Sequence record: NC_055780.1
Direction: 5' to 3' (one strand)
DNA from: Escherichia phage MLF4
Length of the DNA: 64,000 nucleotides
This document shows, in pieces, positions 34,389-36,483 of the stretch. The first letter of the stretch is position 1. The number at the start of each line of letters is the position of its first letter. The notes under the pieces were generated by a model, which saw only the letters and a list, made by a program, of their open reading frames with translations, was not told the DNA's origin and made no database searches. The position numbers and the translations under genes are program-made.

Positions 34389-34934
34389 ATGAGAAAAGCA
34401 CTACTCGCTGGTCTATTGGCCATTTCAATGATGGCGCATAGCTCCGAGCATACTTTCAGTAATGTCCAACTCGATAACATGCGTTACGCGTATCAATTCG
34501 GGGAACAATTTTCTAAGGATGGAAAATATAAAACACACAAAAATATCCACAAGAGCGGATTAGGTCATATAATGGCTGCTATTTTATGGCAAGAAAGCTC
34601 TGGCGGAGTTAATTTAAAATCTAAACCAAAGCATCACGCCTACGGAATGTTCCAAAATTATTTGCCTACTATGCGAGCAAGAGTTAAGGAACTTGGTTAT
34701 AATATGACCGATGCTGAAATAAAAAGAATGTTGAATAAACGGTCCAATTCAGCTTCCTGGGCGTACATTGAACTTTCTTATTGGTTAAATATACATAAGG
34801 GCGATATAAGAAAAGCAATATCCTCTTATAATTCGGGATGGAATGTTAAAGCAGGTTCTAAATATGCTTCTGAAGTCCTAGAAAAGGCTAATTACCTTAA
34901 AAATAATAAACTTTTGGAAATAGTAAATGACTAA
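34389..34934 (+). CDS. secreted lytic transglycosylase-like protein (181 aa), vs.1-like
   Basis: Signal peptide MRKALLAGLLAISMMAHS; WQESSGG…YGMFQ resembles the SLT catalytic region. Confidence 0.55.
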   Translation: MRKALLAGLLAISMMAHSSEHTFSNVQLDNMRYAYQFGEQFSKDGKYKTHKNIHKSGLGHIMAAILWQESSGGVNLKSKPKHHAYGMFQNYLPTMRARVKELGYNMTDAEIKRMLNKRSNSASWAYIELSYWLNIHKGDIRKAISSYNSGWNVKAGSKYASEVLEKANYLKNNKLLEIVND

Positions 34935-35268
34935 AATTTTGGTTTTATGTATAGGATTAATTTCATTTTCTGCGTTAGCAGATACATCATATACTGAAAT
35001 TAGAGAGTATGTAAACCGTACTGCAGCGGATTATTGCGGGAAAAATAAAGCATGCCAAGCTGAATTTGCACAGAAATTAATATATGCATATAAAGACGGA
35101 GAAAGAGATAAATCAAGCAGATACAAAAACGATACATTATTAAAACGATATGCTAAAAAGTGGAATACCCTAGAATGTTCAGTTGCGGAGGAAAAAGATA
35201 AAGCCGCTTGTCATTCAATGGTTGACCGTTTAGTAGATTCTTATAATCGAGGATTGAGTACTAGATGA
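34927..35268 (+). CDS. small secreted protein (113 aa)
   Basis: Signal peptide MTKILVLCIGLISFSALA; four Cys. Confidence 0.5.
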   Translation: MTKILVLCIGLISFSALADTSYTEIREYVNRTAADYCGKNKACQAEFAQKLIYAYKDGERDKSSRYKNDTLLKRYAKKWNTLECSVAEEKDKAACHSMVDRLVDSYNRGLSTR

Positions 35269-35744
35269 TTGTAAAATATATCAAGGGCGATATTGTCGCC
35301 CTATTTCTTCAAGGTAATATTATTGCGCACGGGTGCAATTGTTTTCATACTATGGGTTCAGGCGTAGCGGGTCAATTAGCAAGAGCCTATCCCAAAATTT
35401 TAGAAATAGATAAAACCACTACTGAGTACGGTTCTCGTGATAAATTAGGCGATATGTCTATTGTTTTTAAACATAGTCCTACGGGATTTGGTATATGCTA
35501 TAACCTGTATACGCAATACGAACCAGGTCCTAATCTTGATTATGGTGCTTTAGTAAACTGCATGATAGAATTAAATCTACAGGCAGAAACCCTTTTGTTT
35601 AAACCAGTAATTTACATTCCGCGTATAGGTTGTGGTATTGCTGGCGGCGATTGGGATAAGGTTTCTAAATTAATCGACATGTTTACTCCTGATATTGATT
35701 TAATAGTGGTGGATTATGAAAGTACATTACCCGCATCCGTTTGA
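35265..35744 (+). CDS. macro-domain-like protein (159 aa)
   Basis: IIAHGCNCFHTMGSGVAGQLARAYP and IYIPRIGCGIAGGDWDKV resemble the two conserved macrodomain ADP-ribose-binding loops. Confidence 0.55.
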   Translation: MIVKYIKGDIVALFLQGNIIAHGCNCFHTMGSGVAGQLARAYPKILEIDKTTTEYGSRDKLGDMSIVFKHSPTGFGICYNLYTQYEPGPNLDYGALVNCMIELNLQAETLLFKPVIYIPRIGCGIAGGDWDKVSKLIDMFTPDIDLIVVDYESTLPASV

Positions 35745-35928
35745 TCCTAAAAACAAAGCAGAAATTATTCGTCAATGGGAACGCATTTGCCGTACTAAAT
35801 GCCCAATTAATAGTCCACATGATGTAAATAAAGACTACATTGGAACATTCGTTGAATATACCTTTATTGATAAGAAAGGTCGTAAACAACATGTAGAAGA
35901 ATATTGCTTAAAGGTTACATGGTTATGA
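35716..35928 (+). CDS. hypothetical protein (70 aa)
   Basis: ATG with GTGGA RBS; overlaps neighbours; Cys-containing. Confidence 0.45.
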   Translation: MKVHYPHPFDPKNKAEIIRQWERICRTKCPINSPHDVNKDYIGTFVEYTFIDKKGRKQHVEEYCLKVTWL

Positions 35929-36131
35929 GCCAAACTAGTATTCTTAAAAATGCCCACTGTGAAAAGTGTAAGTGGCCGGTTGTTTTTGCTTTATGCAACG
36001 ATGAAATGACTTGTGATTTCGATTATTGGTGCTATTGTTCTAATAAAGGATGTATCAATCATAAAGGTGAAGGATTTTATTCGGGATTTTATCCTTATCC
36101 AGATTTCGTTAAAGAAGGTAAACCAAAATGA
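35904..36131 (+). CDS. Cys-rich small protein (about 70 aa), putative zinc binding
   Basis: CEKCKWP…CNDEMTCDFDYWCYCSNKGC; start uncertain (35919 or 35925). Confidence 0.45.
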   Translation: MLKGYMVMSQTSILKNAHCEKCKWPVVFALCNDEMTCDFDYWCYCSNKGCINHKGEGFYSGFYPYPDFVKEGKPK

Positions 36132-36297
36132 ATAGTTTTGAGTTACAATACGAAGTGTTACGTGAGCTTGATAATTTAATTGAACTCGCTGCTAATAAAG
36201 GTTTTGCCATTGGAATTGGTCAAAAAGATACTGATCATTTAACTATGGAAATATTTAAGCAAAAGCGAATTATTTTAAAACTCCTGGAAATTAATAT

Positions 36298-36483
36298 ATG
36301 AGTCTGAGTAAAGAACAAAAAGATAAATTGTTTGAGCTTATCCATGAACTTCTAGATGAGCATACAGAAGCAAACACCTTTTATGATGAATACGGCCCGC
36401 TATCTCCCGAACAGCAGGAAGAATTTGCTGTTCGGTTTGATAAGAAAGAAAATGAATTAATAGCTTATGTGAATACGCTTTAA
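36298..36483 (+). CDS. hypothetical acidic protein (61 aa)
   Basis: Small ORF immediately upstream of tk. Confidence 0.45.
   Translation: MSLSKEQKDKLFELIHELLDEHTEANTFYDEYGPLSPEQQEEFAVRFDKKENELIAYVNTL

What the first reader, a model, noticed from the sequence alone, without database searches (positions are those of the whole stretch)
35265..35744. Macro-domain-like protein in the regB-tk accessory region
The 159-aa protein shows the two glycine-rich loops typical of macrodomains (AHGCNCFHTMGSGVAGQL and PRIGCGIAGGDW), which bind or hydrolyse ADP-ribose derivatives. ADP-ribosylation matters on both sides of phage-host conflict: T4 itself uses ADP-ribosyltransferases (Alt, ModA, ModB), DarT-type toxins ADP-ribosylate phage DNA, and NAD-derived molecules act as defence signals. 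A phage macrodomain is therefore a plausible counter-defence or regulatory enzyme. I cannot confirm whether T4 has an ortholog.
Basis: partly seen in the sequence, partly recalled or inferred. Interest (0 to 1): 0.6.

Follow-up and report, generated by a model that had tools for sequence, protein, structure and literature searches.

The report
Divergent allele of T4 anti-DarT2 macrodomain

Summary
The ORF at 35265-35744 (+, 159 aa) is real and encodes a macrodomain: Pfam Macro scores above its cutoff, the AlphaFold model has pLDDT 94, and the top structural matches are BT1257, DarG, Poa1p and TARG1. The window is a T4-like phage. The gene sits between vs and tk.3, exactly where T4 has tk.4, so T4 does have an ortholog (58% identical). 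A 2025 preprint showed T4 tk.4 (renamed adfM) is the one gene T4 needs to grow on DarTG2 hosts. The likely function here is removal of ADP-ribose that DarT2 places on thymidines of phage ssDNA; this allele is untested. Three refinements came out of the work. (1) The family has an invariant Gln where DarG and TARG1 have the catalytic Lys, as in Streptomyces SCO6735. It scores weakly on DarG models, unlike PhiKZ 'AdfM', which is a true DarG-type protein. (2) The gene body is a roughly 370-bp cassette of Gaprivervirus-like ancestry inside T4-like flanks. It is under strong purifying selection and is more canonical than the T4 allele. (3) A terminator-like hairpin inside codons 7-13 is more stable than synonymous recodings allow and recurs in several phage lineages. 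Verdict: a new member of a known kind, of modest interest.

The parts
35265..35744 (+). Macrodomain ORF (159 aa), the positional ortholog of T4 tk.4 / adfM
   Evidence: ORF. Pfam Macro 32 bits against cutoff 22. 58% identity over 155 aa to T4 Tk.4 with no gaps. Same position between vs and tk.3 as in T4, RB9, fPS-2, SP18 and QL01. Model pLDDT 94.3.
35265..35268 (+). ATGA start/stop overlap with the upstream vs gene (the vs ORF ends at 35268)
   Evidence: The same arrangement occurs in T4. That this means translational coupling is my inference.
35284..35312 (+). Terminator-like hairpin inside codons 7-13 (AGGGCGAT-ATT-GTCGCCCT) followed by ATTTCTTCAA
   Evidence: Found by the terminator scan and annotated as a terminator in the phage fPS-2 record. 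MFE is -12.9 kcal/mol against -4.5 +/- 2.0 for 300 synonymous recodings, p=0.003. The stem is kept with different sequences in Winklervirus-like and Vequintavirus homologs. Function untested.
35325..35378 (+). Loop 1 / ADP-ribose-binding segment, residues 21-38, including invariant H22, G23, N25, C26, G33 and A35
   Evidence: Invariant columns in the 60-sequence alignment. Residues 20-38 are identical in the T4 allele. N25 aligns with PhiKZ AdfM N23, whose mutation to Ala reduces activity. H22 and T29 align with Poa1p H23 and S30.
35502..35516 (+). N80-L-Y-T-Q84 strand; the invariant Gln84 occupies the position of the catalytic Lys of TARG1 (K84) and DarG (K80)
   Evidence: N80, Y82 and Q84 are invariant and T83 is at least 90% conserved. 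The profile-to-TARG1 alignment places Q84 on K84, and BT1257 also has Gln there. SCO6735 has Gln85 at the equivalent site and Q85A is inactive (PMC9411070).
35619..35654 (+). Loop 2, PRIGCGIAGGDW, residues 119-130 (by analogy with other macrodomains, the loop expected to bind the diphosphate and distal ribose)
   Evidence: P119, G122, G124 and W130 are invariant. The motif matches SCO6735 PRIGCGLAGGTW and BT1257 PRIGCGLAGGKW, not TARG1 PRIGCGLDRLQW. The T4 allele departs here: PRIGAGIGKGNW.
35380..35755 (+). Gene-body cassette of Gaprivervirus-like ancestry inside T4-like flanks (approximate breakpoints)
   Evidence: Sliding-window identity: the window is 98-100% identical to T4 up to about 35290. 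Over about 35380-35755 it is 40-70% identical to T4 but 87-98% to SP18. Over 35756-35905 it is 92-98% identical to T4 again. dS/dN incongruence between vs and the macro gene is.
35716..35744 (+). 29-nt overlap of the macrodomain ORF's 3' end with the start of tk.3 (DUF7202)
   Evidence: A 13-nt gap relative to T4 in the alignment shifts the stop. The last five residues have pLDDT below 50, which suggests a disordered tail.

Best explanation
The ORF encodes a stand-alone macrodomain of the TARG1/DarG/SCO6735/Poa1p structural class. It is a deeply diverged allele (58% aa identity) of T4 tk.4 = adfM, the phage's anti-DarTG2 factor. Most likely mechanism: after infection the host toxin DarT2 ADP-ribosylates thymidines in phage single-stranded DNA and blocks replication. 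This enzyme binds the ADP-ribose through its two Gly-rich loops and hydrolyses the thymidine-ADP-ribose bond, restoring the DNA. Its active site is of the SCO6735 type, with an invariant Gln84 in place of the DarG/TARG1 catalytic Lys, so catalysis probably runs through an activated water rather than a lysine. Shown here: the gene, the fold, the class, positional orthology with T4 tk.4, conservation of all family-invariant residues, and purifying selection. Shown by others: T4 tk.4 is required on DarTG2 hosts (genetics only), and Gln-type SCO6735 cleaves thymidine-linked ADP-ribose from DNA. Inferred: that this allele has the same activity and target.
For: The fold and class are supported. Orthology with T4 tk.4 and shared synteny are shown. 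For T4, tk.4 was the single significant hit on a DarTG2 host, and a clean knockout became sensitive. T4 lacking adfA and adfN stays DarTG2-resistant, so another factor was expected. SCO6735 lacks the Lys/Asp dyad and has Gln85; Q85A is inactive; the enzyme removes T-linked ADP-ribose from DNA and protects against DarT. Q84 is invariant in 60 family members and aligns to TARG1 K84. The window allele keeps 35 of 38 conserved family columns against 31 for the validated T4 protein. dN/dS is 0.045-0.13 within the allele type. The allele is common: 311 phage records at 90% identity or more. An unrelated-branch phage macrodomain, PhiKZ AdfM, removes DarT2 marks in vitro, which shows the strategy works for phages.
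Against: No experiment exists for this allele. It differs from T4 Tk.4 at 65 of 155 positions, including four in loop 2. Even for T4 the enzymatic step is inferred, not measured. The family scores poorly on DarG models: PADLOC 27.5 bits against 132.9 for PhiKZ AdfM, and NCBIfam 27.7 against a cutoff of 250. It lacks the DarG lysine. It shares the HxCNC motif and the His/Ser-equivalent residues with the phosphatase Poa1p, so other substrates are not excluded. I could not see a residue-level alignment to SCO6735 around Gln85. That equivalence rests on the TARG1 alignment, the paper's statement and coordinate offsets.
Confidence: 0.65

Rival explanations
1. It is a small-molecule ADP-ribose-derivative enzyme, as current database labels ('phosphatase', 'Poa1p-like', 'O-acetyl-ADP-ribose deacetylase') imply. 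It would dephosphorylate ADP-ribose-1''-phosphate, or degrade OAADPr or NAD-derived immune signals, rather than repair DNA.
Against: These labels are homology transfers, not tests. The only functional data for the T4 ortholog is a DarTG2-specific phenotype. From general knowledge, T4's own tRNA repair (Pnkp/Rnl1) does not generate ADP-ribose-1''-phosphate. The invariant Gln84 matches the residue essential for DNA de-ADP-ribosylation in SCO6735.
Confidence: 0.12
2. It neutralises DarT2 mainly by binding (toxin inhibition, or shielding of modified DNA) rather than by catalysis.
For: Catalytically dead SCO6735 Q85A, DarG K80A and TARG1 K84A all inhibit DarT activity in vitro, and SCO6735 does so most strongly.
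Against: The protein has no DarT-binding C-terminal domain: it is 159 aa and covers only positions 3-144 of the 329-position DarG model. Strict invariance of the active-site residues H22, N25, N80, Y82 and Q84 across 38-100% identity fits an enzyme. PhiKZ AdfM acts catalytically, and an active-site Asn mutant is impaired.
Confidence: 0.08
3. Its main substrate is ADP-ribosylated protein or RNA. It would either reverse or tune the phage's own Alt/ModA/ModB modifications, or remove host-inflicted RNA marks such as uracil-ADPr.
For: SCO6735 and TARG1 also act on protein substrates and on uracil-linked ADP-ribose in RNA.
Against: From general knowledge, Alt and Mod enzymes modify arginine, a linkage that TARG1-class macrodomains are not known to cleave. 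No phenotype other than DarTG2 sensitivity is reported for T4 tk.4, and it is dispensable on plain K-12. The mRNA adenine marks made by CmdT are described as irreversible.
Confidence: 0.1
4. The allele is a decaying or non-functional copy left over from recombination.
For: The gene has a mosaic structure and a 3' end shifted by a 13-nt gap relative to T4, which gives a 29-nt overlap with tk.3 and a disordered 5-residue tail.
Against: The ORF is intact. dN/dS is 0.045-0.13 across Tequatrovirus and Gaprivervirus carriers. All invariant residues are retained. The allele is present in 311 records, and the model is high-confidence.
Confidence: 0.02

Closest known systems
T4 Tk.4 = AdfM (anti-DarT factor Macrodomain; NP_049723.1; bioRxiv 10.1101/2025.11.20.689424)
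   Same: Same locus (vs - macro - tk.3), same length class and the same family. It is 58% identical over 155 aa without gaps. Loop 1 and the N-L-Y-T-Q strand are identical, and the 5' intragenic hairpin is the same.
   Different: There are 65 substitutions, concentrated after residue 40. Loop 2 is PRIGCGIAGGDW here and PRIGAGIGKGNW in T4. The gene body has a different, Gaprivervirus-like ancestry with dS about 1.25 to T4, while the flanks have dS about 0.16. Only the T4 allele has been tested genetically.
Streptomyces coelicolor SCO6735 (PDB 5E3B), a stand-alone thymidine-ADPr DNA hydrolase
   Same: It is a stand-alone macrodomain of the TARG1-like class, with Gln instead of the catalytic Lys and an AGG-type loop 2 (PRIGCGLAGGTW). 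It has no partner toxin gene. It counters DarT.
   Different: Identity is about 25%. SCO6735 is a bacterial, DNA-damage-induced genome protector with a longer, Lys-bearing mobile loop after the Gln. Coordinate offsets suggest that loop is about 3 residues shorter here and lacks lysines.
DarG antitoxin of DarTG2 (PDB 5M3I, 5M31, 7OMU)
   Different: DarG uses Lys80, has a C-terminal DarT-binding domain and is encoded next to darT. None of these holds here. DarG model scores are far below family thresholds.
PhiKZ gp104 'AdfM' (Cell Rep 2026, PMC13309987)
   Same: It is a phage-encoded orphan macrodomain that counters DarTG2, and its conserved loop-1 Asn (N23) corresponds to N25 here.
   Different: It belongs to a different branch. 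PhiKZ AdfM matches Mtb DarG at E 9e-25, carries the FPTK lysine motif and scores 132.9 bits on the PADLOC DarG model. It is barely alignable to the window protein (BLASTP E 0.001 over 23 aa). It is also imported into a phage nucleus.
Bacteroides thetaiotaomicron BT1257 (PDB 2AFC/2FG1) and yeast Poa1p (PDB 6LFQ-6LFU)
   Different: BT1257 has no known function. Poa1p is a eukaryotic ADP-ribose-1''-phosphate phosphatase, and identity is about 24-29%.

Membership tests
Macro domain superfamily (Pfam PF01661) | Profile match above the curated gathering score | tested here: met
   32 bits against a cutoff of 22, covering profile positions 2-117 of 118.
Macro domain superfamily (Pfam PF01661) | Three-layer alpha/beta/alpha macro fold | tested here: met
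Macro domain superfamily (Pfam PF01661) | Binds ADP-ribose | not testable with these tools
TARG1/DarG/SCO6735/Poa1p ('ALC1-like') macrodomain class | Closest structural and sequence neighbours belong to this class rather than to MacroD, viral or PARG types | tested here: met
AdfM, T4 Tk.4 type | Positional orthology: encoded between vs and tk.3 in a Tevenvirinae genome | tested here: met
AdfM, T4 Tk.4 type | Full-length homology to T4 Tk.4 with family-invariant residues retained | tested here: met
   58% identity over 155 aa, E 1e-70. All 15 invariant columns and 35 of 38 conserved columns are retained.
AdfM, T4 Tk.4 type | Required for, or sufficient for, phage growth on DarTG2-expressing hosts | not testable with these tools
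   This is shown only for the T4 allele. I found no published data for phages with this allele.
AdfM, T4 Tk.4 type | Hydrolyses thymidine-linked ADP-ribose on ssDNA | not testable with these tools
   It has not been measured even for T4 Tk.4. It has been measured for SCO6735 and PhiKZ AdfM.
DarG antitoxin (DarTG2) | Catalytic lysine (Taq/Mtb DarG Lys80, equivalent to TARG1 Lys84) | tested here: not met
   An invariant Gln84 occupies this column. PhiKZ AdfM and DarG share FPTK.
DarG antitoxin (DarTG2) | C-terminal DarT-binding domain | tested here: not met
   The protein is 159 aa. It matches only positions 3-144 of 329 in the PADLOC DarG model and 2-142 of 338 in the NCBIfam model.
DarG antitoxin (DarTG2) | Encoded next to a darT toxin gene | tested here: not met
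   The neighbours are RegB, Vs.1 (SLT), Vs, Tk.3 (DUF7202), a zinc-binding protein, Tk.2 (DUF7438) and Tk.
DarG antitoxin (DarTG2) | Family model score (NCBIfam NF048014 equivalog) | tested here: not met
   27.7 bits against a cutoff of 250.
SCO6735-type thymidine-ADPr hydrolase | Gln at the catalytic position, with the TARG1 Lys/Asp dyad absent | tested here: met
   Q84 falls on TARG1 K84 and A126 on TARG1 D125. The SCO6735 residues are taken from PMC9411070.
SCO6735-type thymidine-ADPr hydrolase | Extended mobile loop after the Gln carrying Lys89 and Lys94 for DNA binding | tested here: inconclusive
   Coordinate offsets indicate SCO6735 has about 3 more residues between window positions 84 and 113, and window residues 85-112 contain no Lys. 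No residue-level alignment of this stretch was obtained.
Poa1p-type ADP-ribose-1''-phosphate phosphatase | Loop-1 His23 and Ser30 equivalents | tested here: inconclusive
   H22 aligns with His23, and Thr29 (not Ser) aligns with Ser30. This is compatible with such activity but not diagnostic, because H22 is also shared with BT1257 and TARG1.

The most novel reading that the evidence does not exclude
The two deeply diverged adfM alleles of T-even phages (window type and T4 type; 58% identical, differing in loop 2) may not be interchangeable. They could have different target ranges, for example different DarT2 variants, sequence contexts, or DNA-thymidine versus RNA-uracil ADP-ribose. They would then be kept in circulation by cassette exchange between phage genera. 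Their expression may in addition be gated by a conserved terminator-like hairpin inside the first 15 codons.
Probability: 0.2. Interest if true: 0.55.

Novelty: new member of a known kind. Interest (0 to 1): 0.3.

Why it matters
DarTG is a widespread defence that stops phages by ADP-ribosylating their DNA, and AdfM-type macrodomains are how large lytic phages undo it. The practical value here is annotation. This allele is at least as common in sequenced T4-like phages as the T4 allele (311 records against 224), yet it is labelled 'phosphatase' or 'hypothetical protein'. It should be read as a probable anti-DarTG2 factor, which is relevant to predicting the host range of therapeutic T4-like phages. 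The mechanistic point is that phages have recruited two different macrodomain lineages under the one name AdfM. One is a DarG-derived Lys type (PhiKZ). The other is a SCO6735/BT1257-like Gln type (T4 and this window). The 'captured antitoxin' story therefore does not simply apply to T-even phages, and any inhibitor or mutational work should target Gln84 and Asn25 rather than a lysine.

Tried and rejected
(1) I tried to obtain a residue-level alignment to SCO6735 around its catalytic Gln85. Sub-queries of the PDB returned only the loop-2 segment or no SCO6735 hit at all. The equivalence therefore rests on the TARG1 profile alignment plus the paper's statement.

(2) The hhalign comparison with PhiKZ AdfM has low confidence across the catalytic strand and places the Lys two residues off. 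I did not rely on it, and used the DarG alignment of PhiKZ AdfM instead.

It was rerun without that row.

(4) The promoter scan gave 12 sites against 15 +/- 4 expected, so it carries no signal. The terminator count of 4 against 2.1 +/- 1.4 is not significant on its own. A 91-nt fold gave z = -1.65 against dinucleotide shuffles. Only the synonymous-recoding control gave a clear result for the hairpin.

(5) I looked for published DarTG2 sensitivity data on phages carrying this allele and found none.

(6) I checked whether the other T4 anti-DarT genes lie nearby. adfN is gene 30.3. By my reckoning from the T4 map, both adfN and adfA (61.2) fall outside the window. I did not search the window for them.

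(7) I considered a pseudogene or decaying copy and rejected it on dN/dS.

(8) I considered a captured DarG antitoxin and rejected it on the catalytic residue, domain content, model scores and neighbours. One bacterial homolog I examined is a stand-alone gene with no DarT beside it (a single example).

Full report
OBSERVATION. Both quoted Gly-rich motifs are present, at residues 21-38 and 119-130. The flanking genes are RegB (Pfam REGB_T4, 1.4e-68), an SLT-domain protein (vs.1) and vs upstream. Downstream lie tk.3 (DUF7202), a phage zinc-binding protein, a 57-aa ORF, tk.2 (DUF7438) and thymidine kinase. A 3.2-kb stretch around the gene is 98-99% identical to many Tequatrovirus (T4-like) genomes. 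The gene's ATG overlaps the vs stop codon (ATGA), and its 3' end overlaps the tk.3 start by 29 nt.

IS IT A MACRODOMAIN? Yes, by every test available.
- Pfam Macro scores 32 bits against a gathering cutoff of 22, over nearly the whole profile.
- PHROG 335 matches at 1.2e-71.
- The nearest solved proteins by sequence are BT1257, Poa1p, SCO6735, M. tuberculosis DarG and TARG1. A 60-sequence family profile raises these to E 2e-19 to 5e-12.
- AlphaFold2 on a 59-sequence alignment gives pLDDT 94.3 and pTM 0.89.
- Foldseek against the PDB returns TARG1, Poa1p, BT1257, DarG and SCO6735, all at probability 1.00 with TM 0.7-0.83.

DOES T4 HAVE IT, AND IS IT KNOWN? T4 encodes tk.4 (NP_049723.1, 155 aa, annotated 'phosphatase; contains A1pp phosphatase motif') at the same position between vs and tk.3. 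The window protein is 58% identical to it over 155 residues with no gaps. A bioRxiv preprint of November 2025 (10.1101/2025.11.20.689424) ran a T4 transposon library on a DarTG2-expressing host and found tk.4 as the single significant hit. A clean knockout became DarTG2-sensitive, and the authors renamed the gene adfM, 'anti-DarT factor Macrodomain'. They state only that enzymatic removal of ADP-ribose from DNA 'seems likely'. This fits earlier work showing that T4 lacking adfA and adfN remains DarTG2-resistant. Independently, a Cell Reports 2026 paper gave the same name to PhiKZ gp104. It showed in vitro removal of DarT2-placed ADP-ribose from DNA, reduced activity in an active-site Asn mutant, and rescue from DarT2 toxicity. 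Phage macrodomains as a class were catalogued earlier: 41% of myoviruses carry one. So the kind of gene is known. This allele has not been tested, and I found no published DarTG2 data for phages that carry it.

WHAT KIND OF MACRODOMAIN? An alignment of 60 family members spanning 38-100% identity has 15 invariant columns: H22, G23, N25, C26, G33, A35, D49, G62, N80, Y82, Q84, P119, G122, G124 and W130. The profile-to-TARG1 alignment puts the invariant Gln84 on TARG1's catalytic Lys84 (NlYtQ over YLITK). It puts Ala126 on TARG1's Asp125, and BT1257 also has Gln at the first site. According to PMC9411070, TARG1 Lys84 corresponds to DarG Lys80 and to Gln85 of Streptomyces SCO6735. SCO6735 lacks both dyad residues and is inactivated by Q85A, yet it efficiently removes thymidine-linked ADP-ribose from DNA and protects against DarT. 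Its dead mutant also inhibits DarT by interaction. Loop 2 of the window protein (PRIGCGIAGGDW) matches SCO6735 (PRIGCGLAGGTW) and BT1257 (PRIGCGLAGGKW) rather than TARG1 (PRIGCGLDRLQW).

PhiKZ AdfM is a different case. It aligns to Mtb DarG at E 9e-25, shares DarG's FPTK..WR.PS motif including the lysine, and hits nothing but DarGs in the PDB. On the PADLOC DarG model it scores 132.9 bits, against 36.0 for T4 Tk.4 and 27.5 for the window protein. The NCBIfam DarG equivalog gives the window protein 27.7 bits against a cutoff of 250. The window protein and PhiKZ AdfM are barely alignable by BLASTP. The conserved Asn mutated in PhiKZ (N23) corresponds to the window's invariant N25.

The name 'AdfM' therefore covers two lineages. 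One is a Lys-type, DarG-derived protein (PhiKZ). The other is a Gln-type protein close to BT1257 and SCO6735 (T4 and this window). The window protein fails every DarG-specific membership test: lysine, C-terminal DarT-binding domain, adjacent darT gene and model score. It plausibly still works like DarG. One bacterial homolog I examined (Pelagimonas, 40% identity) is a stand-alone chromosomal gene with no DarT nearby. This is a single example and only weakly informative.

THE ALLELE IS A SWAPPED CASSETTE.
- Against T4, nucleotide identity is 96.7% in vs and 86% in the first 130 nt of the macro gene. It drops to 57.4% over the rest of the gene and rises to 92.9% in tk.3.
- A five-way comparison shows the window is 98-100% identical to T4 up to about 35290. 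Over about 35380-35755 it is 87-98% identical to Gaprivervirus SP18 and only 40-70% to T4. From 35756 to 35905 it is T4-like again, and there SP18 is only 57-80% identical.
- Nei-Gojobori estimates agree. In vs, window against T4 gives dS 0.16, and window against SP18 is saturated. In the macro gene, window against SP18 gives dN 0.027 and dS 0.6, and window against T4 gives dN 0.376 and dS 1.25.
- This is phylogenetic incongruence over a few hundred bases: a recombinational exchange of the gene body between genera. One junction lies in the highly conserved loop-1 coding region and the other at the tk.4/tk.3 boundary.
- Related alleles in Dhakavirus and Gaprivervirus phages form an identity gradient. 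This suggests the donor was of that group, but the direction of transfer is my inference.
- Within the window-type allele, dN/dS is 0.045-0.13, so the gene is functional.
- The allele is found at 90% aa identity or more in 311 phage records. The T4 type is found at 90% or more in 224 records, with a further 159 at 80-90%.
- Compared with 35 distant family members, the window protein keeps 35 of 38 conserved columns, and its three exceptions are I/L/V swaps shared with T4. T4 Tk.4 keeps 31, and its extra departures are A126G, G127K, D129N and I137L.
So the untested allele is the more canonical of the two, which raises my confidence that it is active.

MECHANISM AND RIVALS. The best-supported reading (confidence about 0.65) is a DNA ADP-ribosylglycohydrolase that removes DarT2's thymidine-linked ADP-ribose from phage ssDNA, using a SCO6735-like Gln84-centred active site.
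- Shown here: gene, fold, class, orthology, residue conservation and purifying selection.
- Shown by others: the T4 genetics, and the biochemistry of SCO6735 and PhiKZ AdfM.
- Inferred: this allele's activity and target.
The rivals are as follows.
- A Poa1p-like phosphatase or small-molecule ADPr enzyme. The HxCNC motif and the H22/T29 equivalents of Poa1p H23/S30 are present, and this is what database labels say. Those labels are untested, and the only phenotype known is DarTG2-specific.
- Non-enzymatic inhibition of DarT2. Dead SCO6735 provides a precedent, but there is no DarT-binding domain and the active site is strictly conserved.
- Protein or RNA de-ADP-ribosylation. SCO6735 and TARG1 cleave uracil-ADPr RNA. 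This could be an additional activity rather than an alternative.
- A decaying copy. This is rejected by dN/dS.

SIDE OBSERVATION. A terminator-like hairpin (AGGGCGAT-ATT-GTCGCCCT followed by ATTTCTT) lies inside codons 7-13 at 35284-35302. One phage record annotates it as a terminator. The generic statistics are weak: a 91-nt fold gives z = -1.65 against dinucleotide shuffles, and the terminator count in the region is not above chance. A control that recodes the same peptide with synonymous codons gives -12.9 kcal/mol observed against -4.5 +/- 2.0 expected, p = 0.003. Across 65 distinct homolog sequences, 20 reach p <= 0.05 where about 3 are expected. The stem is kept with different sequences in Winklervirus-like phages (GGTGAC/GTCGCC, GGCGAC/GTCGCC) and in Vequintavirus (GGGAGAT/ATCTCCC). 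The Vequintavirus version involves changes on both arms and an Ala-to-Ser replacement. The hairpin is absent in Moonvirus, Jiaodavirus and others. Because it sits just after the upstream gene's stop codon, an attenuator or terminator separating the upstream unit from adfM is a reasonable but untested idea.

VERDICT. The gene is a new, untested member (a deeply diverged, horizontally exchanged allele) of a recently described kind, T4 tk.4/adfM. The added value is modest: correct annotation for a very common allele, the Gln-type against Lys-type distinction within 'AdfM', the cassette exchange, and the intragenic hairpin. Interest 0.3.

Noticed in passing
window 35284-35312 (+), inside codons 7-16 of the macrodomain ORF: A terminator-like hairpin plus T-rich tail lies within the coding sequence. 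It is significantly more stable than synonymous recodings of the same peptide (p=0.003). It recurs with sequence-distinct, pair-preserving stems in Tequatro-, Gapriver-, Dhaka-, Winkler-like and Vequintavirus homologs but is absent in Moonvirus and Jiaodavirus. It may be an attenuator between vs and adfM.
   Followed up: partly
window 35322-35348 (+): A second, weaker stem-loop (ATTGCGC-ACGG-GTGCAAT) followed by TGTTTTCATA lies over the HGCNCFH codons. It is only partly preserved in T4, and its conservation was not tested.
   Followed up: no
window ~35380-35755, compared with T4 (L001) and SP18 (L002): The body of the macro gene has Gaprivervirus-like ancestry (87-98% to SP18), while vs and tk.3 on either side are T4-like (92-100%). 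This looks like a cassette exchange of a few hundred bp between phage genera.
   Followed up: yes
window 35904-36301 (+): Gene content between tk.3 and tk differs from T4. A 75-aa phage zinc-binding-domain protein (PF23895) and an unrelated 57-aa ORF sit where T4 has nothing equivalent. T4 tk.1 has no counterpart: the 57-aa ORF shows no similarity to it. The 61-aa ORF at 36298-36483 is tk.2, at only 54% identity. RB9 and fPS-2 share this arrangement.
   Followed up: partly
window 35716-35744 (+): The macro ORF overlaps tk.3 by 29 nt because of a 13-nt gap relative to T4, where the overlap is only ATGA. The extra C-terminal residues are predicted to be disordered.
   Followed up: partly
literature, not the window: The name AdfM is now used for two proteins from different macrodomain branches. 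PhiKZ gp104 is DarG-like with the catalytic Lys (PADLOC DarG 132.9 bits). T4 Tk.4 is Gln-type (36 bits). Neither source I read remarks on this.
   Followed up: yes
window 34927-35268 (+), vs gene: The adjacent vs gene (valyl-tRNA synthetase modifier) has no Pfam match. The same preprint reports it as the T4 gene most strongly depleted in minimal medium. So two conditionally essential accessory genes sit side by side with overlapping stop and start codons.
   Followed up: no
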